Source: Proteromonas lacertae (Eukaryota). Taken from it: DNA of 64,000 nt. The stretch covers positions 186,001-250,000 of the forward strand of contig NGBS01001167.1 in assembly GCA_002245135.1 (NCBI GenBank). The letters are read 5' to 3'. Under the pieces are notes generated by a model. The model searched no databases. It saw nothing but the letters and a program-made list of their open reading frames with translations, and was not told the DNA's origin. How positions within the stretch are numbered: the first letter of the stretch is position 1; each line of letters opens with the position of its first letter. The translations under genes and the position numbers were made by a program. This document shows, in pieces, positions 6,375-63,774 of the stretch.

Positions 6375-7766
6375 TCACTTCAAATTATCTATAATACTCT
6401 TAAATAAACCCTTAAATTCATCTATATTAATCTTCACGTCAGATTGTCCTTCAGTATCACAACCTAATGTATAATAATAATGCCCTAACATCACAGAATT
6501 CCTATATGTAATATATCTAACCATATTTGCGAAAAAATGAGAAGATTTAGGTAAAAATTCCAAGATTGTACTGCCAGATCTCATAAAAAACATATTATAA
6601 AATGCACCTCCATGTGGTCCCATCAAAACTTTCACTTTCGACAAAAATCCAAACAACTCATCTAGATTCTTATACTTCTTCGAGTCAAACACCTCAAACC
6701 TGTATTTAGTATTTTGGAGCATATCATTAGCAGTATCAATAAACTGTTTTTCATTAATCACTCTTCTTCCTCCATTAAAAGTTCCTTTATTCCTTGATAA
6801 ATACAGTATGTAATAAACATCATCACTTTCTTTATAATCAGGTGATAAATGAGGTAATTTAAACAAATACTGTGATCTCTTCCATAAATAAGGATGCATA
6901 GGTGGACATACACATGGAACTATTAATTCATCAGCTGATATATCATTTCTATTTGATATAATAATTCGATTAGAATCAATTCCTAATCTCTTATATAACT
7001 CACCAACAATTGGCCATTTTGAACTTAGTGATATAAAGAACTTCACTTCAGGATCTTTGATGAAGTCTTCAGCTTGTACTATTTTGGGTAAAACACCATC
7101 TAGGAAGTGTTGAAATGCATAACCTTCTGGAACTATTAAATATACTACTTTACCACTTAAATGTAGTGGTTTTCTAGTTCCACTTTTGATTTGATGTAAA
7201 TTGTCAGCTTTGTAACCACAATCGTAGTAACTATCAATTGATCCTTCTTTAACTATATCAACATAACCCAATAAAGTTTGGCTGTTAATTTCAACGCCAA
7301 AATTATTGTAGTTTATGCTGTTATATAGTTTATGTTTTTTATCGTCATATTGAAACATGTAATTTTTTACATTATTACATATTTCTTCTTTACATTCATT
7401 TTTATTTCTTATGTTAGTTTGAATAAATGGCAGATTAATAAAAAAAGGTGGTTCGTTAACAGGAGGAGGAACTACAAACGGTTGATAAGTATATTTCAAT
7501 CGTTTGATAAAGCCTGAAGGAAGATTAACAGTAATTACAGTTGGTTCATTTTTCTCAACATCAATTGTGAAAACCTTCCTAGTAACGCCTCCTTCATTAG
7601 GTGACATACTTACTATGCTACTTACAGACATATTCTTCTCAGCCTTCAACTTGATCGGATCATCTTGCTGAGTTACAGTTTTGGTTATAAATATTGATGC
7701 ATTCTTTAAACTGAATAATTGAACTGCTAAAAATATGGCTAAAAGTAACAAAAAACACCATTTCAT
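6375..7766 (-). CDS. Glycosyltransferase family 61-like type II membrane protein, intronless
   Basis: N-terminal signal/TM segment; FQHFLDGVLPKI, YLSR...RRVINE and VLMGPHGGAFYNMFFM...ILEF motifs typical of GT61. Confidence 0.8.
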   Translation of the reverse strand: MKWCFLLLLAIFLAVQLFSLKNASIFITKTVTQQDDPIKLKAEKNMSVSSIVSMSPNEGGVTRKVFTIDVEKNEPTVITVNLPSGFIKRLKYTYQPFVVPPPVNEPPFFINLPFIQTNIRNKNECKEEICNNVKNYMFQYDDKKHKLYNSINYNNFGVEINSQTLLGYVDIVKEGSIDSYYDCGYKADNLHQIKSGTRKPLHLSGKVVYLIVPEGYAFQHFLDGVLPKIVQAEDFIKDPEVKFFISLSSKWPIVGELYKRLGIDSNRIIISNRNDISADELIVPCVCPPMHPYLWKRSQYLFKLPHLSPDYKESDDVYYILYLSRNKGTFNGGRRVINEKQFIDTANDMLQNTKYRFEVFDSKKYKNLDELFGFLSKVKVLMGPHGGAFYNMFFMRSGSTILEFLPKSSHFFANMVRYITYRNSVMLGHYYYTLGCDTEGQSDVKINIDEFKGLFKSIIDNLK

Positions 7767-7862
7767 CGTATAATAAATAAAAAAACAAAAAGGAATTTTT
7801 GATTGTTTGGGTTATCAAAAAATTAAGTGAAAAATAAAACCCCATACCATTTTTCTCTTTCT

Positions 7863-12428: not shown

Positions 12429-12721
12429 TTGTTAAGTTATATATTAAAAATGTGTGTATTATAGTTATTAAAACAATATTTGTAATTGTTAGGAATTAAA
12501 TACTATGCAAAATGAAATCTCTATAAAATAATAAATTGTGATGCTTTTACATTATTCATTGATTTTACTGATGTGTGTTTCAAATATAATATTTATATTA
12601 GATAAATTAGTTTCGTTTCAATTAGATTATAAGAAAAAGGAGAAAAAAAGATAGAAAACTTGAACCTCTCAAACATTTCAAAAAGAAAATTACGAAATTT
12701 AATCTCTTCATTAATATAAGG

Positions 12722-13821
12722 ATGATGTCAAACGATAAGAACAACAGAGTACTGAAATATGTGTCATTAGTTACCTTGACATTCCAAGCTGCTGCTCAGG
12801 TATAGTAGTTTAATATCTTCAATAGTTTCTATTAGTACGATACACTCGAACACTTCCTGGACCTCGGTATATTTAATAATATTGATTTAATGGAATTTTA
12901 GTTACATAACCTCCACTGTTGTGGTTTTAAACGAAATTGCTAAATTATTAGCTTGTTGTGCAATAATTTACTATCAAAAGAATGGATTTGCTGGTTTAGT
13001 TGATGAAATTGATCGTGAAATAATAAAGAAACCAAAAGAGACTTTGCTTTTAATTGTTCCTTCTGGTTTATACACATTACAAACAAATCTAATCTATGTG
13101 TCCTTATCTCATGTAGATGCAACAACATTTCAAATCACATATCAATTAAAAGTATTAACAACTGCATTATTTTTTGTGATTTTACTTCATAAACGACTAC
13201 ATCCAATGCAATGGTTGAGTTTAATTTTGTTAACAGTAGGAATTACCTTAGTTCAACCTCAAGATAAAGGTCAACAAAAGAATGAAGGTGGTTTTGAACA
13301 AAATTATTGGTTTGGCTTGATATGTTTGATTATAAGTGCATTTTCGTCTGGTTTTGCTGGTGTTTATTTTGAAAAATTATTAAAAAATGCAAAGTATATA
13401 TATTATATATATTTAAATAGAACTTCCTTGTGGATTCGTAATATTCAATTATCTCTTTTTGGAGTAGTGTTTGCAATAGGTAATGTAATATATAGTGATA
13501 GTAGTAAAATAAGTGAAAATGGATTTTTCTATGGTTATAACATACTTAGTATGGATGTGTGTTGCTTTACAAGCATTTGGAGGTTTAGTGGTTGCAACAG
13601 TAATTAAATATAGTGATAATATTATGAAAGCATTTGCAACCTCTTTATCTATTGTTGTTTCTGTTATAGTCTCCATATTATTTATGGGTTATAGTTTAAC
13701 TACAACAATAGCAGTTGGAACAGTATTAGTGATGATAGCGATGTTTATGTATGGTAATTATACAGTTCAAGATGTAAAACCAATAGTGACTAAACCTTCT
13801 GATGATGATTTGAAGAATTAA
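12722..13821 (+). CDS. Nucleotide-sugar (UDP-galactose/UDP-GlcNAc) transporter, SLC35A family
   Basis: DATTFQITYQLKVLTTALF, SGFAGVYFEKLLK, SLWIRNIQL and GGLVVATVIKYSDNIMKAFATS. One apparent indel near 13545. Confidence 0.92.
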
Positions 13822-13952
13822 AATAGAATTCTGTTGAATTTATCATAATTCATTTATTACAATAGATAATATGTGTTTTTAAGAATAATATTACCATATA
13901 ATCAAAAATAAAACAATTAATTAATTATTCATTACATTTATGATTTATATAA

Positions 13953-16900
13953 TTATTCTTCTGCTGGAGCTTCTTCTCCTTCCTCGGCTGGTTGTTCTTC
14001 TCCTTCTGCTGGTTGTTCTTCTTCTGCTGGTTGTTCTTCTTCTGTTGGTATTTCCTCTGCTGGTGCTTCTCCTTCTTCAGCTGGTTGTTCTTCTTCTGTT
14101 GGTATTTCTCTGCTGTTGTTCTTCTTGGTTGTTCTTCTTCATTGTTTTTTCTTGTTGTTTTTTCTTCTGTTGGCTTCTTCTGTTGTTGTTCTTCTTCTGC
14201 TGGTTGTTCTTCTGTTGGTTGTTCTTCTTCTGTTGGTATTTCCTCTGCTGGTGCTTCTTCAGCTGGTTGTTCTTCAGCTGGTTGTTCTTCTGTTGGTTGT
14301 TCTTCTTCAGTTGGTTGTTCTTCTCCTTCTGTTGGAGCTTCTTCTGTTGGTTGTTCTTCTTCTGCTGGTTGTTCTTCTGTTGGTTGTTCTTCTTCTGTTG
14401 GTATTTCCTCTGCTGGTGCTTCTTCAGCTGGTTGTTCTTCAGCTGGTTGTTCTTCAGCTGGTTGTTCTTCAGCTGGTTGTTCTTCAGCTGGTTGTTCTTC
14501 AGCTGGTTGTTCTTCAGCTGGTTGTTCTTCTGTTGGTTGTTCTTCTTCAGTTGGTTGTTCTTCTCCTTCTGTTGGAGCTTCTTCTGTTGGTTGTTCTTCT
14601 TCTGCTGGTTGTTCTTCTGTTGGTTGTTCTTCTTCTGTTGGTATTTCCTCTGTTGGTGCTTCTTCAGCTGGTTGTTCTTCTGCTGGTTGTTCTTCAGCTG
14701 GTTGTTCAGATAACAAATATTTACCATTTAATGGAGATGATGCATCTTCAAATGGCATTACTTCTACACTTGAATTGAAATGATATATTAAAGGATTTGA
14801 ATATGGAATATGAACATTCATTATATCTTCATTACTAATGCCATCAATAGATTTAACAATTAATTTGATTGTTGATTCTGGACAACATACAATTACATTC
14901 TTACCACTTTGTAATAATTTCTTAATATTCTCTTCATAATAACTTGTAATACGTCTTTCAGCTAATTCTAATGATTCTCCTTTTGGTAGTAATTCTTTAT
15001 CTACATTATCATATCTTCTATCAATTGATTCATCAACATCATCAACAACTGGTGGCATAGCGGTGAAATCAGAAGATAATTGAGCAACCATATCTGGATA
15101 TTTCTCTTCAGCTGATGCTTTTTCTTCACCTTGTAAAATACCTAAATGTTGTGGGTTTAATTCCCATGATTTAGTTATTGGAATATGTACATAATTGGCT
15201 TCATCTAAAGCTAAATGTAATGATTTAATTGATCTTCCTAAACAGCATGTAAAACCAGCATCAAGTGGAATATTTGATTTTCCTAATACTTTACCAGCAT
15301 TGACAGAATGTGATTCTCCGGTTTCATTTAATGGAATATCTTTCCATCCAACAAATCCATTTGAAACAGATAAATCATCTTCACCATTTCTCATTAATAC
15401 TAAATAAGTAGTTCGTTGTGGAACTGCATTATCTATTACTTCTTTAACACTGTTTGACACTTCTTCAACTTCTTTATTAGCATCAACTCTGTATATAGTT
15501 ACACCTTGTTCTTCTAATTTTGCTACAACTGGTAAACTTTGATTTTGGAAAGTCTCAAATCTGTGTTTGATTGTTTCTTCATTATCATCAGCTCGACCAC
15601 TCGTCTCGCCTCGTTTTAATAATCTTTCAGTCATTACTTCTTCACTACATTCGAAGAATAAAACTCCAACTACATTCACATGACCACTCATTTCTTTATT
15701 CCAACCTTCTAAATTCTCTTCATTTCGAGGGAATCCATCAATTAAGAAATTGTGATGACCTTCATGACAATAAGATAACATCTTCTTTCTTAATAATCTA
15801 ATGGTTATTTCGATTGGAACTATAGTTCCAGCTTGGATATGTTCAGCTATTAATTGACCATCTTCACTTCCACTTTCTTGTTCTTCTCGTAAACAGTCTC
15901 CAGCACTGATATGACGGAATCCATAATGATCAACTATATAACTACATTGAGTTCCTTTACCACTTCCTGGACCTCCCAACACAAATATTACACTTGGATT
16001 ACCTCCAGGGAATTCATTCAAATTATTCACCATCACATTATCAACAGATTTACTCACTTCATCTTTCTCTTGTTCGGCATTTACTTTGAATACTTTTCCT
16101 TCTTTCTCATATAATTCGATTATGGGTTGACTTTCATTTTCGAATGTTAATAATCTCTTCTTTATACTTTCTTCATTATCATCAGCTCGACCACTTGTTT
16201 GAGCTCGGAATAAGATTCTTTGAGTCATACATTCTTCACTACATTCAAAGCATAATACTCCCAATAAATTCACTTTATCAGCTAATTCATTATTATATAC
16301 TTCGATATTTTCCATATTTCGAGGAAATCCATCTAATAAAATCTTGTTTTTACCACTACTGTTTAATTCCATTATCTTATCTCGCATTAAACCAATTAAT
16401 AAACTAGTTGGAACTAATTTACCTTCACTCATTAAGTCTTTCAAGGTTTGACTTGTTTCAGTATCTTTTGTACATTCTTCTCTCAATAAATCACCTGTGG
16501 AAATATGAGCATATCCATATGTATTTTCTATATATTCACATTGTGTTCCTTTACCACTTCCTGGACCACCCAATACAAATAATAATGATGGTTTGCTTCT
16601 ATCAATTTCAACTTCAGGTGGTTTTTCTTCTGTTGGTTTTTCTTCTGCTGGTGCTTCTTCTGTTGGTTGTTCTTCTGCTGGAGTTTCTTCTGCTGGAGTT
16701 TCTTCTACTGGTACTTCTTCTGTTGGTTGTTCTTCTGTTGGTTGTTCTTCTGTTGGTGTTTCTTCTGCTGGTGTTTCTTCTGCTGGAGTTTCTTCTACTG
16801 GTACTTCTTCTGTTGGTTGTTCTTCTGTTGGTTGTTCTTCTGTTGGTTGTTCTTCTGTTGGTTGTTCTTCTGCTGGTGTTTCTTCTGCTGGTGTTTCTTC

Positions 16901-18941
16901 TGCTGGTACTTCTTCTACAGTAGCTTGTAGATTACCTTCTTCAATGTGTAAATTGGTTGTATTAATAATATGATTCATTATTTTATCAACTTCAGATGAT
17001 ACACTTTCTGTATCACCTTCTGCATTAATTCTATTCACTAATCCACTTGCTTCTAATTGATGAACTACAGGAAGTGAATCATTTTGGAATGTAACGAATC
17101 TGTGTTTGATTGTTTCTTCATTATCATCAGCTCGACCACTCGTCTCGCCTCGTTTTAATAATCTTTCAGTCATTACTTCTTCACTACATTCGAAGAATAA
17201 AACTCCAACTACATTCACATGACCACTCATTTCTTTATTCCAACCTTCTAAATTCTCTTCATTTCGAGGGAATCCATCAATTAAGAAATTGTGATGACCT
17301 TCATGACAATAAGATAACATCTTCTTTCTTAATAATCTAATGGTTATTTCGATTGGAACTATAGTTCCAGCTTGGATATGTTCAGCTATTAATTGACCAT
17401 CTTCACTTCCACTTTCTTGTTCTTCTCGTAAACAGTCTCCAGCACTGATATGACGGAATCCATAATGATCAACTATATAACTACATTGAGTTCCTTTACC
17501 ACTTCCTGGACCTCCCAACACAAATATTACACTTGGATTACCTCCAGGGAATTCATTCAAATTATTCACCATCACATTATCAACAGATTTACTCACTTCA
17601 TCTTTCTCTTGTTCGGCATTTACTTTGAATACTTTTCCTTCTTTCTCATATAATTCGATTATGGGTTGACTTTCATTTTCGAATGTTAATAATCTCTTCT
17701 TTATACTTTCTTCATTATCATCAGCTCGACCACTTGTTTGAGCTCGGAATAAGATTCTTTGAGTCATACATTCTTCACTACATTCAAAGCATAATACTCC
17801 CAATAAATTCACTTTATCAGCTAATTCATTATTATATACTTCGATATTTTCCATATTTCGAGGAAATCCATCTAATAAAATCTTGTTTTTACCACTACTG
17901 TTTAATTCCATTATCTTATCTCGCATTAAACCAATTAATAAACTAGTTGGAACTAATTTACCTTCACTCATTAAGTCTTTCAAGGTTTGACTTGTTTCAG
18001 TATCTTTTGTACATTCTTCTCTCAATAAATCACCTGTGGAAATATGAGCATATCCATATGTATTTTCTATATATTCACATTGTGTTCCTTTACCACTTCC
18101 TGGACCACCCAATACAAACAATAATGATGGTTTTGGTCCTGTTGCAACTTCATTAAATTGAGCAGCTAATTTTTGTTCTAATTCTTTAGATACACTGTCT
18201 GGATCTTGTTCTACATTTACTTTCACAATTTGTCCTTGTGATTCATAATAATCAGCGATGTATAATGTTTTATTAATAAATGATTCGTAGGATTCTAAGT
18301 ATTTATTTCTCTTCTCTTGTGGAGCTTCTAATACCCTTCTCATTATGAATTCTTTTGATGCCTCTAAAACTACAGCTCCTTTTACATCACAATACTTATC
18401 CATTTCTAATTTCCATGCATTAAAATTGTCAATATTGACTGGGAATCCATAAATGAGGAATTTAGAGTGGTTTTGTTTGACAAAATGATCCATTCTTTTA
18501 ATTAATAGTTTTCCTAATAAATCACATGGAATTATTCTTCCTTTTGATTTTAATTTCATTATTCTTTTTCCATCATGTGAAGCTCTATGTTAAACTTATA
18601 AAAATAAATAAATATACTTTTCTTCTTCCATTTTTACTAAATTTGACATACTTAAATAAGTATATCCAAATTTACGTTCTAAATTCATAGCTTGTGCCTT
18701 TCTTCCTATCAAAAAATATAAAAAAGTAAAATAATACCAACTTGTGGTGGTCCCATCAATAATAATATTTCTGGTCTTACACCTTTGAATGGTTCTATTG
18801 TTTACACAATAAAAAATAAAAATATACGATTTGGATCATCTAAAAAAAATATAAAAATAAGAATATATACCTGGATTTGTAGCTTTTAAAGCAGACTCAG
18901 CGCTATAAAATAAATATATTTACATTTAAATACCTTCCCAT
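13953..18941 (-). CDS. Multidomain protein: 5 adenylate/UMP-CMP kinase domains (first degenerate), inactive phosphoglycerate-mutase-like domain and Glu-rich repeats
   Basis: Four GGPGSGKGTQC/DGFPRN/GRADDNEE domains. Spliced 5' exons give MGSAESALKATNP...LMGPPQVGRKAQ (fifth, degenerate domain). dPGM-like region at about 14720-15415. The repeat-frame stop is TAA at 13953-13955; indels near 14100-14190 shift the supplied ORF. Confidence 0.88.
13956..14706 (-). repeat. Coding minisatellite (EEQPA/EEQPT units) with higher-order 240-bp duplication
   Basis: 15-18-nt units. 14281-14400 is identical to 14521-14640. Confidence 0.95.
15558..18133. repeat. Near-perfect ~1.04-kb direct repeat (15558-16594 and 17097-18133, offset 1539) inside the kinase gene
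   Basis: Identical translated ORFs in several frames at offset 1539. One synonymous mismatch noticed (16580 vs 18119). Confidence 0.95.
16620..16920 (-). repeat. Coding minisatellite, 15-nt EE(Q/T/V/A)P(T/A) linker
   Basis: Tandem 15-nt units separating the two kinase-domain pairs. Confidence 0.95.
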
Positions 18942-19072
18942 TTGTATATTTCAATTAGAAATCAATCAAAAACGATTTTTGTAACGAAAATAATCTGAAA
19001 CGAGTATATTATTGAAACAAAAAACTAGACGTTAATATTAATTTAAATAATTTCTTTGGTTTATACGCAACT

Positions 19073-20537
19073 ATGGATGATGAATGGGAATTAGATAAAG
19101 AAAATATTAAACCAGCCAAGAAAGGCCATAATGTTGATACTATAAATGAAGTACTAAAAGTACAAAGCAAAGCAGAGAAATTGAACTATTTAGAACAACA
19201 AAAAATGTATATTAGATTTATTATGTGTTTAAAATAGGTATTATGAAAGTAATATAGATAAATACAATGGAATTGATCCATTATCACCTTGGTTAATGTA
19301 TATAACTGTTTAATATATTGTTAGTTATATAAAATGGATTAGAGATACATATGTAAGTGGTTCAGATAGTCCTATTCGATCTGTGATAGAAAATTGTGTA
19401 AACAGATTTCTTTCAGGTGAACAATATCGAAATGATGATAGATATATTAGTTTATGTGTAGAATATGCCGATTTAGAATCAGATCCAGAACCAATTTTCG
19501 AATTCCTAGATTCAAAAGGTATTGGCAGTGAAAGTGGATTTTATGCAATAGCCAAAGCAGTAGTAAAAGAAGAAAAAAAGAATTACATAGAAAGTGATAG
19601 AATATATAGAGATGCCATAAAGCGATTACTACCTCCACAAAACACAGTAAAATTATCATATTCAGAGTTTCTAAGGAGAATAAGGAGAAGTATTATAAAT
19701 TACTGTAAAGAAAGAATTGCCTTAGGAAAACCAGTAATAAATGAATTGTTGGAAATAGAGAAACAAGAGCCAAATATTTATAATAAAAATGTCAAAAAAG
19801 CAATTCACGTATTGACAGCTCATGAAGCTAATAAAAATCCAAATAAAAAGGGATTAATGCCAACTGATAATTCAAATAAACCAATAATTAAATTAAATAA
19901 TTATAATAATGGAATAATGAATAATAATAATAATAAAAAGGAGTTTAAAATATATCATGATGATGATGAAGAAGAAAATAATATAAATGTAAATAATAAT
20001 AATCAAATGATGATGATGATGGAAGAAGAAGAAGAAGAAATAGGAGGAAATAATAATAATAAATTACTTAATAGTATCAATAATAGAAATGGTAATTGGA
20101 ATAATTTAAATAGTCATGAAGAAAGAACCAAAGAGAATATAGTTAATAAAAGGAAATGGAATGAAATAAAGATAGTTCAAAATAGAGGTAAAAATACAAA
20201 TGAAAAGAAAAGTTCATTTCAAATATACCGAGATGATGAGAATGATGAAGAGTTAAAAACAAGAAATATAAGGAGGAAGTTGGAATATAATACTGAATAT
20301 AACTATAGTAACAAAAGATCAAATGGATTAGAAGAGGAAAATGAAGAAGAAGATGATATGACTGTTAATACTAAAAAAGCGTTAGAAGAATTATCTGATT
20401 TGTATAGTACACCAAGTTGGTGTTTAAAGAAACCTCCCAAACCGTTTATTACACCTCATCCAAATAATAATAAAGATGTTAATAAAGAATTATTAATGAA
20501 ATTGAGTAGTGAAGTATTAAGAAAAGTAGAAAAATAG
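19073..20537 (+). CDS. Spindle checkpoint protein Mad3/Bub1 (MadBub) without kinase domain
   Basis: WELDKENIKP KEN box, DPLSPW..YIKW and YRNDDRYI TPR region, second KEN, two ABBA-like motifs and a CD1-like motif. Confidence 0.85.
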
Positions 20538-26492: not shown

Positions 26493-29400
26493 CTAATTTA
26501 TATTAAAGAATTCTTTCAAAAGATCTTTCTTCATTCTTTCTTTTATCCCTTTCATCTCAATGCTTTTAATTAAGTAAAAGGTATTAAGAAATGATTTTAA
26601 TTCTTTCATATCTATATTAGCTTTTATTGATATTGATAATTTATCCAACCTTTCAAAGGTTTCGTTGTTTTCCTTTATTAATCTCAAATCTAATTCGCTT
26701 AACTCATATCCTTCAAAGTTTATTATAGTTATTGGTTTATAACCTTTCAATCTTTCCATTAACATCTTAAAACCTTTTTCACTCATCCCAATATCTATTG
26801 AGATTATAGAATTATGTTAAATACTTGAAAGATTCAATAAAAAGAAATTATTATCAAAGCTTTTTACTACAAAATTTTTTAAACGTTTGCATATCACTTC
26901 AACACCTTCATCTCCGATTTCATTATTAGCTATTGATACATATCTATCTGAATATGTTGGAATAGAATCTATCAACTCTTTTAACCCTTTGTTACTGATT
27001 TTATTATTGGACAAATCTAATCCTGAAAAATCAAGTCGTTTCAAAGATGATATGTGATAATCATTAACACTTAAACCTATTTCATTACAAATTTAGAGTT
27101 TATACTAGAGAAATCATATTTTGGATAATTATCCTTTTTCCTTTTAATATAATAATTCAAGTAGAATTCTGTTTCTGTATTTGTCCAAAATGAACATTTT
27201 ATATCTATAAATGGACGATTTATATTCTCTAATGATTTTGAACATATAGTCATTAATCCATTCATCCTGATATTATTTCCTTTCAATTTCATAATTTCGC
27301 ATCCTTTAATAGATTCAAATACAGAAGTCAATAACATTATACTCTCATCATCAATTGATATATTACTCAAATTCATTACAAATTTATTATCACTATAAAC
27401 ATTTAATGTATTTATAATGTTTAATAAAGATTGAAATCCAATATTACCTATTGGATTATCTATTAAAATAAATGATAAATATATATATACCATGAATGAC
27501 TAACCATGAAATACTATGTTCATCTTTCATATACTTTACTAAATATTCTATTCCATCAGCATCTATATTATTATTATTTATATCAACTAATCTAAAATGT
27601 CTTTGAATTATTTTCATTCCATTAACTAAACATTTTAATCCTATCGATGATAATCCCATATCTATTTCATGTTAAATTAGAATTGATTATACTTGAACAA
27701 TTAATTACCATACAATTATTTATTACATTCCAAATGAGTGGATAATACTTTCATTCCCAAATCTCCAATTCTATTTCCTGTTAACTCAAGCAATTCTAAA
27801 CTTGTGAATGAAGATAAATTATTAATGATTTTTTCTATACTTCTGTAAGTTAGTTTATTATCTAATAATCATTAAAAAATATTGAATATTATACTTCTTA
27901 AATCTAACTCTCTTATTTCCCCAAATTCATTTGATCTTAATGAAACAAAAGGTATGAAGATATTATCCATCAATTTCTGAATCATTATAAATCCAGTTTA
28001 TTGTTGTTGTATGTTCTTTTGATATACTTTATTAATTCTGGAATATCAACATCAACTAGTAATTCTTTACTTCTATTAAAATCAAATTCTATTTTTGAAA
28101 TAGGAAATTTTGAAAATAAGGCTTTTAATCCAATTGAATGAATGTTATTATTTCTCTGAATATCTATTTTCTTAAGATTTGGATATTTACATAATTTTTC
28201 TGACAATAATATCATTGATTCATCATCTAAATTCATTGCATAAAGATCTAATTCATTCTTTTCATTGATCAATAGATGAAGATGAGGAATTAATAATTTG
28301 AAACCTTTTGGACCAATTGGATTAACTATTACAAAACAAAAAATAAAATGAATACTAATACTATGAAGATTTAAATGTTGTAGTTTCATAAATGGAAATG
28401 AATTAACCAATAATTCAATAAAGTTAGATGTAAGATTCAGATAAGACAGGTCTAATTCTTGCAGATTTGATAATTGAACAAAATATAATCCAAACAATGA
28501 TTGAGTAGGGAGAGTGAAAATAATATCATCTAAAATAAATAAAAAATAAATAAACCATACAAAATTTCAATTTTAATATATTCATCAGTTTCAATATTCT
28601 GAACAAATAATTCATTCCTTCTTCACATAAACAGAAGCATCTTACATCTACTTTCATCATTTCTTTATTTTTTTCAACTCCTTGAATATTAAACAACTTT
28701 CCATCTAAAAAACTATTCCTTTCCATCTTTACATGTGTGATGAATATGGTATTTCAGTCTGTCTTTCATGGAAATATCTTCTTTGTATACTTTAAGCATT
28801 AATAATATAGACAGTATTCTTTCATTGTATTTATTATTGTATAAAATTATCATATTGTCTCGAATTTCTATTCAAATTTAACGATTATCAATATATTAAA
28901 TACTTTTCCATTCATTGCTTTTAACATAATATTCTGATGGATAAGCTATTGGAAATGTACCACTACAATTATCATTAAAGAATAATAACTCTTTTCTTTC
29001 TTTACACATCATCAAATTATTCTCTTCATCTCTCAACATCTCACTTATTTTTATCATTTCTTTACTCAACTCTTTTAAACTCAATCTATCTTCATTCTTT
29101 ACTTTCAACATTTTACCAATAATTTCTTTGTATATGTTATTTTTAATTACATCATTTGAATATTTACATTTCAGAATATTCTTTTTTGTTTTATTCATAT
29201 TATTATCTTCATTGAATGGTAATTTATTGTTTATCATTTCATACAAAACACATCCAATTGACCAAACCACACTTTTTTCATTACATTCTAATCCATTTAA
29301 ATCTTCAGGACTGATGAAAGCATAAATCATATATTCTCATGATCTTCTACTCTTCTAATATTATTCAAAAATAAATCACATAACTTCACTTTATTATACA

Positions 29401-29872
29401 CACACAAATTTTCATATACTACATTAGAACTCTTTAAATTATCTACAAAACCAAACCCATTTAATATCATCAAAATATCACATATTGAACATATTATACT
29501 ATTAATACTTTCACCTGAAATGGATTTACACTCAATCATAATCTCCAAGTCATCAAAATAGTATTTACGATAAACGAACATATAATTACTCAGTATAAAC
29601 ATTTTAGATGGCAATGTTAAGTCAAAGCAACAATCTAACAGTAAACAGTTATTCTCAATAAATTTTAATATTTTCTTTTCTTTAATTCCTTCGATATTTA
29701 ATATCTTTATATATTTAATCTGTTTCTGATGTTCTACTGTAAAATCTATTTCAGATGTGTGTTTCTTTCTTTTCTTTTTAATCTATTCAATATAACATTT
29801 GTATAATACTTCAGTACCATGTGGAAATAATGAATTCAATATGTTTTCAAGTGAAAGATTCAAAAAAAACAT
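26493..29872 (-). CDS. Pseudokinase plus RNI-type LRR protein (several frameshifts; possibly degenerate)
   Basis: Kinase-like AFISPE..VVWSIGCVLYEM..KLPF, lacking HRD/DFG. Long LRR array over many exons. Paralogue of 61147-63448. Confidence 0.7.
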
Positions 29873-30028: not shown

Positions 30029-33000
30029 TTACATCATTTCAACTTGAGTTTGACATCCTTCTCCACTAAATCCATCAAAACATTCACAAACACCTGTTGA
30101 ATAATCGCATATACCTCTACCACTACAATCTCGATATTCATCTTTTCCATCTGTATTAGTATTTGTTGCTTCTTCTGGATCTTCACCAGATGGACATTCA
30201 ATCAAACTACAATCATATCCACGATGTCTCTTATCACATAAACAACCATAGATTCTTTCTTTATCCATTTCAATATTGTAATTCTCTAATTCATTATTTG
30301 ATAATAATTCACTCATTGCAACACATCTTCCATTTCCATTACAGTTATTTGGACAATCTAACCTTTGACAATAACTTCCACTAAATCCATCAAAACATGA
30401 ACATATTCCACTTTCTCTATCACATATTCCTTGTCCACTACATTCTAATTTCTTATGAATATCATTCATTGTTGTTGATCTTACTATTGAATAAGTACAA
30501 TCTGTAGAACTACATTTAATGTTTTTAAAATTTGATAATTTCAATCCCCAAAATGTATTTTTTGCTTCATCTAATTGTCTCATTCTAGTTCCAACTTTAT
30601 CATATTCTATTTGAACATTATAATCAATATTGATTATTTGATGATCAACTGATGATGATGATGATTTAGTTATAGAAAGCCAACTTCCAACTGATAAATA
30701 TTGTTTGATTTCATTTAATATGTCTTTATCTTCAATTGGACTAATTATCAGCATTTCTAATTCTTCCATCTTTTTTCCTATTTTAGCAGCTGCATATGGA
30801 TATGTACTTATAACATATCCATCACCATTACCACTAGGACTTACTTCACTTATTTTTCCACCATTAATATCTTCATTAGATAATTCTCCTCTATTACCAG
30901 CAACTGCTGATGGTATCTTTATATTTCCTTTATCATCAACTACAACTGTTTTACCTATTTGACTTTGACTTAAAGAAATTGGTTTTGCTTCACTATCAAA
31001 TAATGGATAACATTGAGATCCAGCTATAGGAACAGTTGGTTGAGGATCAGATAATACTACATCATTTCCTACTATCTCACTTACAAATGTATAATTACTA
31101 ATTGAACCATCTTTTGGACTAGCACAAGGTAAATCTAAATGAGTTGGAGATAATAATCGAAGTAATGGATTGGAATTTTCATTGTCAAAATCATCAAAGA
31201 ATCCTTTACTTATTAATAATGGACCAACTCCTTTCCAGATTATTTCACAATTATCTATATTACTACAACTTTCTTCTTTTACTTTTATTGCATTTGTACT
31301 TAAATCTTCATTTTTACTCATTATTTCAAATTTAAAGTCTTCTGGTTTTGTTCCTGCATTCATTGGGAATGTATATTCAATATTTAAACTTCCACCAATA
31401 TTACTATAAACTATTGCAGTTCCTAATTCTTTTCCTTCTTTGTCATAACATTTTAATGTTCCTCCAATTTCAGGTATTTCATTAATGATGGATTTTAATG
31501 ATTCTGAATCTGAAGCTTTTACTTCTGTTATTTCTTCTTTCACTACTCCACCAGAATTATATTTCCATTCAGATGGATTATCAATTAAATACTCATATCT
31601 ATAATCACTATCTTTTAATTCAATATTTCCATTTTCACCATATAATAATGAACATTCATTAGTTAATGCTGGATCAAATGTAATTTGAACAACATTTGTA
31701 TCATCTGTAACAACTTCAATTTTTATTGGTGCTGATGGTGTAGATATTATTTTATTACTATCTTTGCACACTACATTAACTGAAGAAACAGATTTAATAT
31801 ATGAAGATAGTAAATATTGAGATTTAGCATTTTCTATGGAATAGAGTGACAAATCATTATATTTCTTCATTAATTTACATCCTCTAAGATCATCAGACTT
31901 TCTATCTCCATTTATATAATAAACATCGTTTATTTTACCAATTATATTTGTTTGTATTGTATTACAAACCAATAATCCTCCAAATTTACCAATGTCATAA
32001 TTTACTCCTTTCACTTTGTATATGAATTTCTTTTCATCAGCAGTTGTCATATCATCATCTTTATCAACATATTTATTTCCATCTTCTAATTGTAATTTGA
32101 AAATATCACTATTTCCTATTTCAATATCTTTACCATCAATATCAGAAGCTAAATAACATGTGATCAGATTTATCTGCTAAATTACCATCCTTTGTTATAG
32201 TATACTTTAATGGTGATGCTTTATCTTTTGATAATGCAAAATCATAAATATCAAAAACAACTGAATTGTCTTACTTCCACAAATGAATTTTGCAGCTTCT
32301 TTGTTGGATGATATAAATTTATTATCAAATAAACTCAATTCAGAATTTGGATATATCAAAGCGCAAGTATCATCAGTACATGTTAATGTTAATTCATTTA
32401 TTGTTGAAATATCATTCATTTTCATTATTACATCACAATGATCAATACCTGTTTTATCAGCATCAGTAATTGTTTCTGATGTTGTTACATAATAGCTATT
32501 ATCATCATTTTAATCCAATTATTTGGACTTCTGAAACAAATGAATTATCAGCTTCAAAACAACTTAACAATGCACCACTTTTGCCAATATCATATTTAAC
32601 ACCACTCATTGTATATATTGGTTTAGCTGCATCTGTTCCAGTTATTGGAGTTTTTATTGTTTTACTATCATCAGCTGCAAATGTAATTTTGTTTTGAGTA
32701 TGAGTATAAATTCCATCTTCTTTCTTTGTCAATTTGAATATTTTAGTTAAATCACTTTGTAATATATCTTTTATTGGACTTCCATCACTGTATGATAATA
32801 AATAACACACTTCTTTTTCCTTCACACACTTCTCACAAGTAAATTCTAATTTTTCTTTTCCTTGTTCTTTAGTATCTATTACTCTTGTTGTATCACGAAT
32901 AGTAATTGTATTATCTTTATTATGACAAGCAAATTGATATTTATCATTTTTACTTTCTAAGAAATTTGTTCCTTCATCTAAATAACTATAAACATCAGTC

Positions 33001-34858
33001 CATGATATTGGATTTGAATGCAGCTTCTATGGTGTAAGGATTAAATAATGATAAATCAGAGTGTTTTATTGTCATATTACATATATCAGTTTCTAATGGT
33101 GTTGCTGGGGGTGTTGGTGGTGTAGTTGTTTTAATTATCGCTATATCTCCTTTCTTTCTTAATATTTTTGCTTCATATCTTTTATTATCACTATAATAAC
33201 ATTCTAATGTTCCACCTGAAGGACCAACATTATATTTACCACCTGGTAATTCGTAAATATTTGATTTATCAGGTATTGGTTCTACTTTTTTATATGTGAA
33301 ATCTCCATATTTTGATACTTGCAAATGATATTTTTCCAAATAAGTACCAGTTACACTTTCTACTTCTATCATTTTATTATTATTAGCATTATTTGCATCT
33401 GTTTTTGCTAAAATATAACATGTATAATCTCCACTTGGTATATCACATGTTGCTTTGGTAAATGTAATTTCATCACTAGTCAAACCGTATGTAAATTCAT
33501 CATATACTTTTACATTATTGTCTTCATCTTTACAAGCAAAAGAGAATTCTTTCGCAGAATTATCTGGTCTGTTTATCAATGATGTTGATGATGTTGGATC
33601 TGTTATTACTTTTGACATACCATCCCATGTAATTGTACAATCTTTAGTTTTATCACCATCACTATTCATCTCAGCAGGGAAATAATATGACAAATCATCA
33701 TATCCTAAATATTGTTTACATTTATATTCTTTTGCAGATGGAGTTTCATCTTTTCCTAATTCAATATCATATGCAATATAATATGTTGTAGTAGTTGTTG
33801 AATCTACATTCATTAAATATGCTTTTGTTGATGTTGAATATGGTGTAATACATTCTAATACTCCAATTTTAGCATTCTCAATTTTTATAACACCATTTGC
33901 ATCAACTATTGAATATACCTTCATTGTTTTTTCTTCAATCTTTAACACAGTAGAAGTTGCTGTTACTGTAACAGCTTCTATTTTTGTTCTGATGCTTTCA
34001 GTAACTTCTGCTATTCCTAATAATGAACAAGATTTTTGTAATGCTGGAGTTGGTGTAATAGCAACTGTAAATTTCACTCCTTTTGGATCTAATGGAGTTG
34101 CATTTTCTTCAACATCTACTGTAAAATCAATTAATCCTCCTGTACATTCAAATTTACAAGTTGACGAAATTTCTAATGTAGAGATGATATAACCCATATT
34201 CTCCCAAGTAATAGTAAATGAAGCAGAATCTGTTGTATCTTTTTTATCATATATCAATGAATAATCACTATATTCTAATATCATTATGTAGGAGTATAAT
34301 TCTGGAGTGTAAACTTCACTCTTAGTAAACTTCATGAAACAGATAGTTGTATCTTTTTTGCAGAATATATCTAATTTATCTACAAATTTACCAGTATTAT
34401 CATAACAGTATAATAGACCACCAACTTTATTAAATGGACCTTCTAATTTCACTTCATAGAAATAAGTACCAACTATCTTGGTTGAAGAACTGACTGTAAT
34501 TTCACCTTCTAGTCTTCTAACTTCATTCATACTTCTCAACTCTCTCAATGGTTGATTTCCATCTTCAGTCTTACGAGTTTTATAATCATTTTCACTGGTC
34601 ACTGCAGAAAAAGGAACATCAATTCCACAACTCTCTAAATAATTATATTAATGTAGATTTCATACTTTTAGAACAGTCTGAGCCTATCCAACTGTAAGTA
34701 CTGAATGAACCACCACTAGACAATATTCCAATGTTCTTTTGGCATTCACACACATTATTTTTACATGTGCCGTGACCACTACAGTTGTTTGGACAGATGC
34801 TAATCACCACACTCAACAATATGCTGATAACAACGAGATAAAAGGTTATTCTTATCAC
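30029..34858 (-). CDS. Large secreted EGF/tenascin-repeat protein related to stramenopile mastigoneme proteins, with a long repetitive insert
   Basis: Signal peptide plus CPNNCSGHGTC. C-terminal ECSGQGICDRESGICSCFDGFSG..CQRLDCPNNC and CSGRGICDYSTGVCECFDGFSG..CQTQ. Several frameshifts between 32150 and 33000. Confidence 0.75.
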
Positions 34859-37427: not shown

Positions 37428-38415
37428 CTAATTTAATTCTTGTATTCTCTTCCATATACTCATTATTCTTAATGCATTCTTATAATGTAATCTCTCTATC
37501 AACTGTCCATTCAAAGTAACTAACTCAGTATTAGCCTTCTCATATGCATCAATCACTTTCTTAGAATATTCAACTTCTTCTTCACTTGGACTATATATTT
37601 TATTAGTAACATCAATAGTAGAAGGATGAATTAATGTCTTTCCATCAAAACCTAACATTTTGCCATGTTGACAATGTTTTTCAAAACCAACTAAGTCTTT
37701 ATAATTCAAATATACACCATCCAATGCAGCTATAAATTAAAAATAAAAAAAATAAAAAACATTAAATATACATTTATTATAAGCTCTAGCGGCTGTTATA
37801 CATTGTGATAATGAATATAATAGATTCTCTCTATTTGGAGCTTCTTTTATATGCATATCTTTAACTAAATCTGATGTTCCCATTACTAAAGCGGTGATTC
37901 TTTTACTACAACCACATATTTCTTTAGCATTTAATACACCAAGTGGAGTTTCAATTAAACACCATATTTTCATTGATTCTGGAGCTTTGCACTTTTGCAT
38001 TAATTCTTCTAATTCGTAAATATTCTCTTTTGTTTCTACTTTTGGTAATGCAACTCCATCTACACCACTTTTTCGAAATCATTTCAATATCTCCTTTTCC
38101 CCATTTTGTATTAAGACAATTTGCTCTGATTATCATTTCTTTTTTAGGGAATTTAGTGGTATTTAAGAGAGCTTTGATATTATCTCTTGCAACTTCCTAA
38201 TTATTTACACAATAAGTAAGATAAAATACTTTATTTGATGGTCCTACTGCATCTTCTAAATCCATTATAACACAATCTGTTTTTAATTTTGATAATTTGC
38301 TTAATGCTTTTACATTAGCGCCTGGAACATATAAAACACTTCTTCTTGGTCTCAATTCTTCAGCAAGTGCTTCTGTGTTGATAGATCTGCTAAGACGACA
38401 GAGAAATTTATTCAT
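37428..38415 (-). CDS. HpcH/CitE family CoA-ester lyase (citrate lyase beta-like / malyl-CoA lyase-like)
   Basis: RPRRSVLYVPG, MDLEDAV, LIETPLGV, MGTSDL and GFDGKTLIHP. The N-terminus resembles a mitochondrial presequence. Confidence 0.88.
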
Positions 38416-38550
38416 TTCTATTAATACAATTTAATACATAATCAATACACATTATTTGTATTTCGAAATACACAATAATCAAATGTTTTTTATTTCAAAA
38501 TTTACTAACAAACAATATCAAAATAATCAATAAATGTTATTTAAGAAATA

Positions 38551-38708: not shown

Positions 38709-40223
38709 TTAACCTCAACATCCTCCTTTCTCAGCAGAAACTCCTGAACTTTTAGTAATCTCCATTGTAGTAAATTCCTCAGCAATAGTAGGATGAATAC
38801 CCACTAATGAGTTAATATCGTTATATGTACCATTCATCTTCAAGCAAATAGCATATCCTTGAACAATCTCACCAGCATTAGGTGATAATATATGAATACC
38901 TAATAATCTCATATTGTCATTCTTATTGCAAATCATCTTGGCAAAACATTTATTTTTTGGTCGTTTTGAGGTTATAGTCCATTCTAATGGTGTAAAGTTG
39001 CTAATAAACACTTCAATATTATCCTGACCATATCTATTTATAGCCGTTTCTTCAGTTAAACCACAACTTCCATATTCTAAAGGAGTAAATACAGTCATTG
39101 GTATTTTTTCATAATCCATTTCAATTTTACTATTACCAAATAATCTTCTAGCTAATAATCTACCAGCCATTATTGCTACAGGTGTTAATTCTTGTTTTTC
39201 ATATAATACATCACCAATTCCATAGATATTACCTATATTGGTTTGTTCATGTTCACATTTTATTTTTCCATTTCTTTCCAATTTTATTCCTAATTCTTCT
39301 AATCCAATATCTTTAGTGACTGCATATCTACCAATTGCACTTAATACTGTATCAAATTCTTCAGAATATTCACTACCATTCTTCTTATAATACACTTTTA
39401 ATTTACCTGTTGATAATTTCTCGATTTTGGAAGGTATTGTTTCTTTTATGAATTTTATTCCTTCTTCTTCTTCATATTCACCGATTTTCTCTGCACATTC
39501 TCTATCAAATCCTCTTAATAATATTGATCTTACCATCACAGTTACATCGAATCCAAGTAATTTCAAGAATCCAGCACATTCTAAAGCGACGAAGCTTGCA
39601 CCAACTACGAGTGTTTTTCCTGGTGGATGGTCTAACATGAATATATCATCACTTGATATAGCGTAGTCACTACCTTCACAATCTAATTTTGAGGGTCTTC
39701 CACCTACAGCTACTACTATATTTTTGCATGTATAAGTGACTTTATTTCCCATTATATCAGTACCTTCCACTTGGTTCTTAGTAAGGATTTTACAGTATTG
39801 ATTTTTATATTCTACATGCTTGTCTTTTAAAGAGATTGCATAGTTATAATTTAAGGAACGGATATGATCTTGAACATTGTTTACTAATGTATTCCAATGG
39901 TGATGAATTGTTGGACAATCCCAACCAAATGCTGGTCCATCTCTCATCATTTCACCGATTATGGAGGCTTGATGCATTAATTTCTTAGGAATACATCCTA
40001 CATTCACACAAGTACCGCCTAAACCCCATACTGAACCATAAGGTGATGGTTTAACGAAATCAAAAACAGCTACTTTTGCTCCTAAACCGGCAGCTTCCTT
40101 TGAACACGCCAAACCTAAATAAATAAACACAGATCATATAAAATATTATATACCTCCACTACCACCTCCAATTACAATTAGATCATAGTCATAACTAATA
40201 ATTTTATCAGTTGTAGTAGTCAT
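38709..40223 (-). CDS. TXNRD: Thioredoxin reductase, high-Mr type, selenoprotein (C-terminal GCUG)
   Basis: GGGSGG FAD motif (exon 1, 39-nt intron 40115-40153), CVNVGC redox centre, IHPT..E. Ends GGA TGT TGA GGT TAA, with TGA at 38715-38717 read as Sec. Confidence 0.95.
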
Positions 40224-52171: not shown

Positions 52172-53479
52172 TTACAACATTGATGCTTGTTCTGTACAAG
52201 CATTTCCATAATATCCTTCAAAACATTTACATAATCCACTGCTTCTTTCACATAATCCATTTCTACTACATTCTAATGGTGGAATTCCATCAACTGTAGC
52301 ATCAATTGGAGTAGCTGATTCATATGGAGTAAAATCAGCAGGATTTCCTCCTACTTTCACATCAGTTCCACTAACAGTCAACTGATCAATAGTCATTCCA
52401 TGATAACCACTTCCACAATTACCACACCATTCAGCTCCTGGTTTATTACCATCTAATTGATTCTTTGTGATTAATCTCATTGGTGATTGTTTTCCTGTTT
52501 GTTGATTTCCAAAGTTGATTGTTGCTATTACTTTATCAGTGTTTTGACTTGGTGTAGATTCAGATACTCCAGCAGCAGATAATTCAACACTTACAGTTGC
52601 ATCAATTGTTCCTACTGGTAATCTTCCAATTACATCATTCCATCCTAATACATAATCACAAACTGCATCTGGTTTATTTCCTGCAGTTGGTTTGGATCTC
52701 TTGTTTTTCACATAATACACAGAATGCATCACTATACCAAATTCGACCATAAATATCTGTATATTCTAAATAACTCATACAACTATATTTAGATGTACCA
52801 TCATAAAATTTATCCGTTTTTTTATCGACTGTAATAGTTTGTGTTGATTTGGATGGACTATCACAATCACTGTTCTCTACATAGCCAGTTGGACATTTCT
52901 TTTCACTACAGTCAAATCCACTATATTCTCCATCACAAACACAAACATAACTATTATCAGCATCCCAACCATTATAATTACTCTTTGGCAGGTTTAGCAT
53001 CGTTTATCAATTCTTTCTAAAGCAGTTCTCATAATAACTTCCACTGTGACTGTCTTCATTCAATCCTAACATCTTTACAGCTGTACAAACTCCATGACCA
53101 TTACAGTTGTTTGGACAACTTAATCTGTCACAACTTACTCCTTCAAAACCACCAAAACATTTACAAACACCACTTGTTCTGTCACAACTACCTTGACCAC
53201 TACATTCTAAACTCGCTCTGTCAGCTAATGTTCCATAACCACCAGGTATTTGAGTTGGATCAACATAACTATGACCATAAGGACAGCTTCCTATTCAAAT
53301 ATTACCATATTTATAAATATACTGCTACTGCAATCACCTTCTAACCAGCCTGGGAAGCAACTACAAACTCCTCCTTTACCACAACTTCCATGACCACTAC
53401 ACATGTTAGGACATGAAGCAGCCATCAAATAATTCATCAATAATAAACAAATTACTGATTTCTTTATCTCAAATCGCAT
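52172..53479 (-). CDS. Tubular mastigoneme protein-like (Ocm1/Sig1 family) secreted EGF-repeat protein
   Basis: Signal peptide, CPNMCSGHGSC..DCS.RSCPYG, ECSGQGSCDRTSGVCKCF, WDADNSYVCVCD..DCSEKKCPTG, LEYTDIYGRIW and terminal ECSRNGLCERSSGLCKCFEGY. Two apparent indels. Confidence 0.8.
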
Positions 53480-53776
53480 TTTGATAAGAATTACTAAATT
53501 CAATGAAGATCTTTCAAACTATTTTGAAAATATCCAATTAAACTATTCTTTATACTCTAATTGTTATTCTTATTGGTTATCTGAGATATTTTTGATTAGT
53601 ATCCAATCAAAACATGATTTTAAATATTTTGAAGTTTCAAAATATTAATCCGTTTCAACTGATGTTTTTTTTCTTTACATCTACTCTATTACTCATTATT
53701 TTCACTTATTTATGTTAATAACACGAACAAATAAAAAAAATAAAGAAGATAATTCTTGTTAAGTAAGACAAAAGAA

Positions 53777-63448: not shown

Positions 63449-63774
63449 TTTTTTTTAACTTTCTTTTGTTTTTTATTTGATTTTCTAATATATCATAAAT
63501 AAATACATCATAATATATATTTTTGAAAATATAAAATTCCATATCTCTTTCTATTTAACAAAATAAATTAAGTCAAGCTCGAGCCTAAATTCCAAATCGT
63601 TCGAAGTATTTTAAACGCTAACTAGTTGAAATACTTTTGAGTTAATATTTTAAATGGCTACTATATTATATGTATTAATTTTGGCCAACATAAAATCAAA
63701 TGAAAAACCCCTACAAAATATTTTTTTAATTCGGACAATTGTATAAAATTGTATAAAACCTTCTTTTAGGCTAA

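What the first reader, a model, noticed from the sequence alone, without database searches (positions are those of the whole stretch)
13953..18941. Myristoylated five-domain adenylate/UMP-CMP kinase fused to a dead phosphoglycerate mutase
Seen: spliced micro-exons (8 and 12 nt among them) give an MGSAES N-terminus, matching the MGxxxS myristoylation consensus. Then come a degenerate kinase domain (GPPQVGRK), four intact GGPGSGKGT domains, a dPGM-fold domain and long acidic linkers. In the mutase domain the catalytic motifs are replaced: RHG to RNG, NER to NPQ, AHGNS to CPEST. Known: multi-domain adenylate kinases act as local nucleotide relays. Inference: a membrane-tethered nucleotide-recycling scaffold in which the pseudo-mutase oligomerises or senses glycolytic metabolites. 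I do not know this architecture from described proteins.
Basis: partly seen in the sequence, partly recalled or inferred. Interest (0 to 1): 0.78.

Follow-up and report, generated by a model that had tools for sequence, protein, structure and literature searches.

The report
Nucleotide kinase chain with dead mutase
A protist gene encodes a chain of nucleotide-recycling kinase domains fused to a copy of the glycolytic enzyme phosphoglycerate mutase that has lost its catalytic residues yet is still conserved, and the dead copy likely serves to pair two chains into a dimer that is predicted to be lipid-anchored.

Summary
The gene is real. It has six exons on the minus strand with 31-33 nt GT-AG introns. 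They give an MGSAES start, a dead kinase (K1), four intact UMP-CMP-kinase-type domains, a dPGM domain lacking 11 of 14 active-site residues, and acidic linkers. Contigs of a ~90%-identical relative (runs guessed to be RNA) skip intron 5, bridge kinase to mutase and keep two of the broken motifs (the third was not listed); dN/dS is about 0.14.

Corrections:
- The four intact kinases are two pairs sharing 1,022 identical bases, and the relative's contigs show one pair; the conserved core is probably three kinases plus mutase.
- The stated 3' end needs a frameshift.
- MG-starting multi-domain NMP kinases are common and described (Chlamydomonas ODA5-associated kinase).
- Metabolite sensing is unlikely because the anion pocket is gone. 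A homodimer model scores 0.55 against 0.00 for controls, possibly from memory of solved dPGM dimers.

What is new is the kinase-pseudomutase fusion. It was absent from all 362 proteins fetched, including the top 150 of an exhaustive search of 1.84 billion representatives, and from my paper searches. New variant of a known kind; interest 0.4.

The parts
18934..18941 (-). Exon 1 (8 nt): ATG, Gly2 and the first two bases of Ser3; start of the predicted MGSAES myristoylation motif
   Evidence: no RNA cover
18871..18902 (-). Exon 2 (32 nt)
18828..18839 (-). Exon 3 (12 nt micro-exon)
18738..18794 (-). Exon 4 (57 nt): first strand and most of the degenerate P-loop of K1
18618..18705 (-). Exon 5 (88 nt)
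   Evidence: covered by a relative's contig
18585..18617 (-). Intron 5 (33 nt, GT-AG), skipped in a contig of run X1
   Evidence: table 5: skip of 33, ends CT..AC on + strand, 89 letters on the short side, 1 contig at depth 4.4
13925..18584 (-). Exon 6: uninterrupted 4.66-kb reading frame from K1 to the acidic tail
18145..18780 (-). K1, pseudo-kinase: GPPQVGRKA P-loop, DGFPR changed to YGFPV, LID motif GRxDD lost
   Evidence: best PDB hit UMP-CMP kinase, E 3.9e-14
17552..18139 (-). K2, intact short-LID NMP kinase (ISTGD, GKLVP, DGFPRNxxN, GRADD)
16964..17545 (-). K3, intact UMP-CMP-type kinase (ISAGD, GTIVP, DGFPRNxxN, RGxxxGRADD) with its own C-terminal strand and helix
16610..16945 (-). Acidic linker of 15-nt repeats (38% Glu, 19% Pro, 15% Thr)
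16013..16600 (-). K4, 99% identical to K2
15428..16006 (-). K5, 88% identical to K3; differs only in the C-terminal part
17097..18118 (.). Copy 1 of the 1,022-bp identical block (K2 plus most of K3)
15558..16579 (.). Copy 2 of the identical block (K4 plus most of K5)
14714..15430 (-). Pseudo-dPGM domain; keeps 3 of 14 active-site positions; predicted homodimer surface at domain residues 55-87 and 137-139
13953..14713 (-). Acidic Glu/Pro/Gln/Ala repeat tail; frame disturbed near 14060-14200, so the true stop (13953 or 13925) is uncertain

Best explanation
The gene encodes a chain of nucleoside-monophosphate kinase domains fused to a phosphoglycerate mutase domain that has lost its catalytic residues; the kinases likely recycle nucleotides near a membrane through a predicted N-terminal myristate, and the dead mutase likely acts as a dimerisation module. 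Steps, with their basis. (1) Shown in sequence: K2-K5 keep the P-loop, the DGFPR arginine and the LID Arg/Asp residues; K1 has lost them. (2) Inferred: K3/K5 phosphorylate UMP/CMP with ATP. K2/K4 carry adenylate-kinase-like Thr/Leu next to a CMP-kinase-like Asn (roles of these residues recalled), so they may also accept AMP and turn 2 ADP into ATP + AMP. (3) Shown: the mutase domain lacks the phospho-histidine and most phosphate-binding residues, and it is under purifying selection. (4) Predicted: it pairs through the usual dPGM dimer face, doubling the number of kinase sites per particle. (5) Predicted: Gly2 is myristoylated, which gives weak, reversible membrane contact because there is no second Cys or basic patch. 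(6) Inferred: the K2-K3 pair was duplicated or homogenised recently in this lineage, and the conserved core is K1-K2-K3-mutase. A flagellar location is plausible by analogy but was not shown.
For: Single open frame across all domains. A 940-nt contig of run X1 runs from the mutase 170 bases into K5 (14715-15601); contigs tile the rest up to exon 5, and one skips intron 5. Of the 38 X1 differences listed in 14756-15214, 24 are synonymous against 21.6% expected (p 4e-8, dN/dS about 0.14), and NPQ and CPEST are unchanged. Of 29 listed K2/K3 codon differences, 28 are synonymous. Kinase motifs intact in K2-K5; best PDB hits are UMP-CMP kinases. 11 of 14 mutase active-site positions lost. Homodimer model: score 0.55, best of 3 controls 0.00, contacts agree 100%, pLDDT at least 89. 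That mark was reached by 21 of 30 solved microbial pairs and 0 of 23 single chains, and by 17 of 29 eukaryotic pairs. Precedent: the Chlamydomonas ODA5-associated kinase is listed as predicted myristoylated (PMC2171396, passages) and multi-domain (PMC12680740, passages); dead glycolytic enzymes are kept as flagellar proteins in trypanosomes (PMC4106842 passages; PMC7729029 section 6.5).
Against: The dimer pass may come from memory of solved dPGM dimers; only 1 of 7 eukaryotic pairs without an older solved relative reached the mark. Introns 1-4 and the MG start have no RNA cover. The two runs are only guessed to be RNA, come from one study, and are contigs, so no single transcript is shown. There is no Cys near the N-terminus, whereas 48 of 64 MG-starting multi-domain relatives have one. 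A quick tree does not place the domains with the ODA5-associated kinase (weak support), and Pfam scans of 87 window ORFs found no flagellum-specific family. No activity was measured.
Confidence: 0.5

Rival explanations
1. The dead mutase is a docking adaptor. It would pair with the cell's active dPGM through the retained dimer face and so tether lower glycolysis to the kinase chain (a local ATP-supply metabolon).
For: Dimer face predicted intact; in the part with listed differences it changes only by one Ile/Val. Mutase, enolase and adenylate-kinase-domain proteins are placed together at the Chlamydomonas C1b projection, the mutase only tentatively (PMC7596323 and PMC7999657, passages).
Against: No active dPGM of this organism was available (no genome held), so neither its existence nor the heterodimer was tested. 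A homodimer explains the same surface more simply.
Confidence: 0.15
2. The pseudo-mutase is a metabolite sensor that binds 2,3-BPG, 3-PG or another phospho-ligand and regulates the kinases, as the first reader proposed and loosely as in PFK-2/FBPase-2.
For: R9, R61 and K99 equivalents are kept. The kinase-plus-histidine-phosphatase order resembles PFK-2/FBPase-2, the nearest Atlas clusters at score 0.88, a lead only. Brown et al. raise ligand retention for dead GAPDHL (PMC4106842, passage).
Against: R89, Y91, R115, R116, S13, N16, T22 and N185 are lost; Asp and Glu now sit at positions 13 and 184; the domain's net charge is -14.
Confidence: 0.1
3. The mutase remnant is only a folded spacer or structural (for example axonemal) anchor, like trypanosome PGKL; dimerisation is incidental.
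For: Purifying selection fits fold maintenance alone. PGKL is dead, axoneme-bound and non-essential in procyclic cells (PMC7729029, section 6.5). Multi-AK chains carry many different accessory modules.
Against: The dimer face is predicted intact. A flagellum was not shown for this organism in my calls.
Confidence: 0.17
4. The five-kinase form is an assembly product: two loci or haplotypes were joined through, or homogenised at, the 1,022-bp repeat. The real gene has three kinases plus the mutase. This affects the domain count, not the fusion.
For: Zero differences over 1,022 bp. All 8 X2 records laid show one copy of the block, and contigs cross both repeat borders without a break. The tail shows error-like gaps.
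Against: The K3 and K5 C-terminal parts are different homologous sequences (55% DNA identity), and the frame stays open through the linker, which a plain duplication error would not give. Near-identical internal domains are common in this family: 24 of 287 multi-domain hits at 95% or more, including the ODA5-associated kinase at 97%.
Confidence: 0.25

Closest known systems
Chlamydomonas ODA5-associated flagellar adenylate kinase (DAAK1; P0017, source name XP_001690042) and sea-urchin flagellar AK with triplicated domains
   Same: Tandem short-LID NMP kinase domains; MG start (predicted myristoylated, PMC2171396 Table II passage); near-identical internal copies (97%)
   Different: P0017 has no match to the mutase domain. 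It has Gln rather than Asn after the DGFPR motif and Cys3. It falls on a separate branch in a quick tree. There is no dead first domain.
UMP-CMP kinase (human 1tev/7e9v, Dictyostelium 1qf9; Pfam PF00406)
   Same: Best PDB match for K1, K2 and K5 (E 4e-14, 4e-49, 1e-58); K3/K5 share SAG, IVP and RNxxN
   Different: Solved members are single-domain. K2/K4 have Thr and Leu at two of these positions. K1 is degenerate.
Paramecium three-domain kinases (P0023 cluster, 8 members)
   Same: MG start; three domains of the RNxxN type, one degenerate; near K2 in the quick tree, unresolved
   Different: The degenerate domain is the last, not the first; Cys3 is present; no mutase
Cofactor-dependent phosphoglycerate mutase (dPGM/GpmA; 1e58, 5um0; Pfam PF00300)
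   Same: Fold (TM about 0.84); 34-37% identity to 5um0 and 1e58; predicted dimer
   Different: H10, E88, H183 and eight further site residues replaced; fused behind kinases
Trypanosomatid PGKL and GAPDHL (PMC4106842 passages; PMC7729029 section 6.5)
   Same: Degenerate glycolytic enzyme kept, in PGKL's case fused to other domains
   Different: Different enzymes, no active kinase partner; their flagellar location is shown, while here location is unknown
PFK-2/FBPase-2 (PF01591 + PF00300)
   Same: P-loop kinase domain followed by a histidine-phosphatase-fold domain; nearest Atlas clusters, 0.88
   Different: No PF01591 hit; the kinases are NMP kinases, the second domain is dPGM-derived and dead; most likely convergent

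Membership tests
Adenylate/UMP-CMP kinase family (PF00406) | Profile match above the curated cut-off | tested here: met
   603.5 bits vs 26.8, 5 stretches
Adenylate/UMP-CMP kinase family (PF00406) | P-loop GxPGxGKGT, DGFPR and LID Arg/Asp-Asp in K2-K5 | tested here: met
Adenylate/UMP-CMP kinase family (PF00406) | Same catalytic motifs in K1 | tested here: not met
   GPPQVGRKA, YGFPV, LID motif absent
UMP-CMP kinase subfamily | Ala/Ile/Asn at the NMP-specificity positions (roles recalled, not read in a paper; one search gave no source that I read) | tested here: inconclusive
   K3/K5 match human CMP kinase at all three; K2/K4 only at Asn
UMP-CMP kinase subfamily | Measured UMP/CMP phosphorylation | not testable with these tools
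   needs an assay
ODA5-associated/DAAK1-type flagellar AK | Tandem AK domains with an MG N-terminus | tested here: met
   the MG start depends on four introns without RNA cover
ODA5-associated/DAAK1-type flagellar AK | Orthology (one clade with P0017) | tested here: inconclusive
   Quick tree of 102 domains puts them apart; careful search unfinished, no one-clade test
ODA5-associated/DAAK1-type flagellar AK | Flagellar localisation | not testable with these tools
   no flagellum-specific family among 87 window ORFs scanned, which says little about the genome
dPGM (GpmA/PGAM) | Histidine-phosphatase branch 1 fold | tested here: met
dPGM (GpmA/PGAM) | RHG phospho-histidine, Glu88 and His183 | tested here: not met
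   RNG, Pro, Pro
dPGM (GpmA/PGAM) | Homodimer | tested here: inconclusive
   model supports it, 0.55 vs 0.00, possibly by likeness to solved dimers
PFK-2/FBPase-2 | PF01591 kinase domain and an intact RHG motif | tested here: not met
N-myristoylated proteins | Gly2 with Ser at position 6 | tested here: met
   MGSAES; motif only, no predictor run
N-myristoylated proteins | Myristate incorporation | not testable with these tools
   needs labelling or mass spectrometry

The most novel reading that the evidence does not exclude
The dead mutase keeps its dimer face in order to pair with the cell's active phosphoglycerate mutase. One lipid-anchored chain would then hold lower glycolysis next to a bank of ADP/NMP-recycling kinases, possibly in a flagellum: a genetically encoded, pseudoenzyme-based anchor for a glycolysis-phosphotransfer metabolon.
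Probability: 0.15. Interest if true: 0.7.

Novelty: new variant of a known kind. Interest (0 to 1): 0.4.

Why it matters
Multi-domain, lipid-anchored NMP kinases are a known device for local nucleotide recycling, and they pick up varied accessory modules. This one appears to have recruited a glycolytic enzyme, lost its chemistry and kept it under selection. It would be a clean, expressible example of a pseudo-dPGM used as a structural module, a counterpart to the dead PGK and GAPDH of trypanosome flagella. If the dead domain binds the live mutase, it would give a direct handle on how glycolytic enzymes are tethered to phosphotransfer enzymes. Its reach is limited: it is seen only in this organism and one close relative.

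Tried and rejected
Whole genome: none held, so paralogues, an active dPGM and flagellar genes could not be checked.

Sequencing runs: no RNA holder on record; two runs guessed to be RNA, each with a 0.05 share, one study. Both were laid. No cover at 16930-17071 (K3-specific tail) or above about 18706; a hole proves nothing. Depths were not used as copy number.

Searches for other fusions: the mutase region among 763-2175 aa proteins found none of 1,712 candidates; this is weak, since it relies on shared words. No PF00300 among the 120 listed of 2,781 hits or the 120 listed of 311 (a few Pfam lists are cut short there, so sequences were rechecked locally). DNA scans gave 9 and 8 loci, 25-35% identical. 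The 9 metagenome loci were checked and have no kinase nearby; the 8 genome loci are bacterial by title and were not checked. Neither of two N-truncated forms of the ORF is in the 15-billion collection.

Folding K5 plus mutase without an alignment failed (pLDDT 42), so no kinase-mutase contact is claimed. The complex tool ignored my alignment. The careful tree did not finish.

My starting guess of Blastocystis was dropped. Window GC is 27% and introns are 31-33 nt, against 39-55% GC with 30-nt introns in human subtypes and 21-23% GC in tortoise isolates (PMC12129017, passages).

Literature: ten searches. None of the listings or the passages read describes an NMP-kinase/dPGM fusion. The library lacks most subscription journals, and no supplements were opened. 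Earlier scan notes: nothing by sequence or by my words.

PFK-2/FBPase-2 membership was rejected.
Full report
1. Observation. The window is eukaryotic: 27% GC, standard code, short AT-rich introns. On the minus strand, exons of 8, 32, 12, 57, 88 and 4,660 nt are separated by GT-AG introns of 31-33 nt and give a 1,619-residue frame starting MGSAES. An enumeration of in-frame splice paths found five, one per ATG; the path from 18941 is the longest, and the others start inside K1. A Mad3/BUB1-domain gene starts on the opposite strand near 19073, leaving about 130 bp, so further upstream exons are unlikely. Pfam gives five ADK stretches and one His_Phos_1 stretch.

2. The segments 15558-16579 and 17097-18118 are identical over 1,022 bases, so K2=K4 (99%) and K3 is close to K5 (88%), while K2 versus K3 is 50% and K1 about 28%. 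The C-terminal parts of K3 and K5 are different homologous sequences (58 of 105 aligned bases), and the frame stays open through the acidic linker. That argues for a real duplication with recent homogenisation rather than a plain assembly error. Near-identical internal domains occur in 24 of 287 multi-domain hits (these are top hits, not a random sample). The long frame stops at 13925 after a Lys/Asn/Gln-rich run, whereas the acidic repeat resumes in another frame that stops at 13953. The repeat copy in between has several 1-2 base gaps against a cleaner copy, which I read as assembly errors.

3. Evidence from a relative. Two public runs (X1, X2; guessed to be RNA; one study; Logan contigs) hold sequence about 90% identical. 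One X1 contig skips exactly intron 5. One 940-nt X1 contig spans 14715-15601, from the mutase into K5. Contigs tile K1, one kinase pair, the K5-type tail and the mutase. A 760-nt X1 contig crosses the upstream border of the repeat from K1, and a 557-nt X2 contig crosses the downstream border into the K5-type tail. All 8 X2 records laid show one copy of the block. This fits a three-kinase-plus-mutase core, though contig building can collapse repeats. Between window and X1, 38 differences are listed for 14756-15214; their density (8.3%) equals that of the whole contig (74 in 887), so the list looks complete there. Of these, 24 are synonymous against 21.6% expected (p 4e-8; dN/dS about 0.14), and the NPQ and CPEST codons keep their residues. 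The RNG codon lies outside the listed range. The dead domain is therefore expressed or at least present in frame in a second lineage and is under purifying selection.

4. The kinase domains. K2-K5 keep the P-loop, the DGFPR arginine and the LID residues; K1 has lost the DGFPR arginine and the LID motif and has an altered P-loop. Best PDB hits are UMP-CMP kinases for K5 (E 1.1e-58), K2 (3.9e-49, with adenylate kinase 1 close at 3.3e-46) and K1 (3.9e-14). K3/K5 match human CMP kinase at three positions that I recall as setting base specificity; K2/K4 match at one. A quick tree of 102 domains (38 chosen proteins plus K1, K2, K3, K5) puts K3/K5 among CMP-kinase-like domains and K2 in an unresolved group near ciliate proteins, both away from the Chlamydomonas ODA5-associated kinase (unfinished search, K1 on a long branch).

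5. The mutase domain. It aligns end to end with dPGMs (E 1.5e-42; Atlas 0.96), and a model from a 17-sequence alignment (pLDDT 82) matches them at TM about 0.84. Against E. coli 1e58 it keeps R9, R61 and K99 and replaces H10, S13, N16, T22, E88, R89, Y91, R115, R116, H183 and N185 (the choice of these 14 positions and their roles are recalled). Catalysis is excluded on sequence grounds, and phosphoglycerate binding is unlikely. Two copies fold as a dimer with score 0.55, best control 0.00, contacts agreeing 100% and pLDDT at least 89. The mark was met by 21 of 30 solved microbial pairs, 0 of 23 single chains and 17 of 29 eukaryotic pairs, but by only 1 of 7 without an older solved relative. 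dPGM dimers are solved, so the pass may show likeness rather than binding.

6. How common is it? Multi-domain NMP kinases are common. Of 362 proteins fetched, 287 have two or more domains and 42 have five or more; 64 of 267 Met-starting ones begin MG, 39 fit MGxxx[ST], and 48 of the 64 have a Cys within residues 3-8, which this protein lacks. They carry other modules: nucleoside-diphosphate kinase, 5'-nucleotidase, protein kinase, sucrase/ferredoxin. The fusion with dPGM was not found. An index-free search of 1.84 billion representatives with K5 plus mutase listed 150 of 26,029 hits, down to 188 bits, a level that a fusion should exceed. Only two matched the mutase, and both are mutase-only. 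Across all 362 fetched proteins the same two are the only mutase matches. Ten paper searches gave no description.

7. What is known. PMC2171396 (passages) lists the ODA5-associated adenylate kinase among predicted myristoylated flagellar proteins and finds late glycolytic enzymes in flagella. PMC12680740 (passages) describes it as multi-domain. PMC2680645 (passages) covers myristoylated AK1beta, Plasmodium AK2 and the triplicated sea-urchin enzyme. PMC7596323 and PMC7999657 (passages) place mutase tentatively with enolase and CPC1 at C1b. PMC4106842 (passages) and PMC7729029 (passages and section 6.5) describe dead, flagellar PGK- and GAPDH-like proteins. Earlier scan notes call this genome's organism a flagellated protist (unchecked AI notes). 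My Pfam scans of 87 window ORFs found no flagellum-specific family, so that point is open.

8. Mechanism and verdict. Most likely this is a weakly membrane-anchored, dimeric nucleotide-recycling enzyme in which the dead mutase supplies the dimer contact (0.5). Rivals for the mutase's role: folded spacer or structural anchor (0.17), adaptor for the live mutase (0.15), ligand sensor (0.1). Separately, there is a 0.25 chance that the second kinase pair is an assembly effect. The protein works like the known multi-domain myristoylated adenylate kinases; orthology to them is not shown. The mutase domain is dPGM-derived but fails the catalytic test for membership. Novelty: new variant of a known kind.

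Noticed in passing
window 18941-19073: Head-to-head with a Mad3/BUB1-domain gene across about 130 bp, probably a shared promoter region.
   Followed up: no
window 12720-13821 +: Nucleotide-sugar transporter gene (PF04142) ends about 130 bp from the kinase gene's 3' end, convergent.
   Followed up: no
L001:6001-6657, L002:6001-6657, L003:1207-1863, L010:1501-2157: dPGM-like genes (L010 titled Lachnospiraceae) with RDG in place of RHG and AHSN in place of AHGN, while NERHYG is intact: another possibly dead or rewired mutase.
   Followed up: partly
P0178 and P0240: Proteins made of three (P0178) or two to three (P0240) dPGM domains; P0178 has NARH instead of NERH in all three.
   Followed up: no
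runs X1 and X2 laid on window 14700-19050: Other multi-kinase sequences are present, including a 2,074-nt contig that goes back 663 bases, so related arrays exist in the same samples.
   Followed up: no
P0264, P0268-P0270, P0343, P0123, P0236: Multi-domain NMP kinases fused to 5'-nucleotidase (PF00149+PF02872), NDP kinase (Cafeteria), a cNMP-binding protein kinase, or a sucrase/ferredoxin domain.
   Followed up: no
window 30032-34647 - and 52175-54535 -: Two regions with long ORFs carrying EGF-like repeats, possibly large surface proteins.
   Followed up: no
window 37431-38430 -: HpcH/HpaI aldolase or citrate-lyase-beta family gene in several ORF pieces, next to a pyridine-nucleotide disulphide reductase at 38718-40133.
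   Followed up: no
window 26496-29782 - and 61150-63454 -: Two similar multi-exon leucine-rich-repeat regions, the first next to a kinase domain.
   Followed up: no
window 6378-7811 -: Glycosyltransferase 61 gene in one 478-codon open frame in an otherwise intron-rich window.
   Followed up: no
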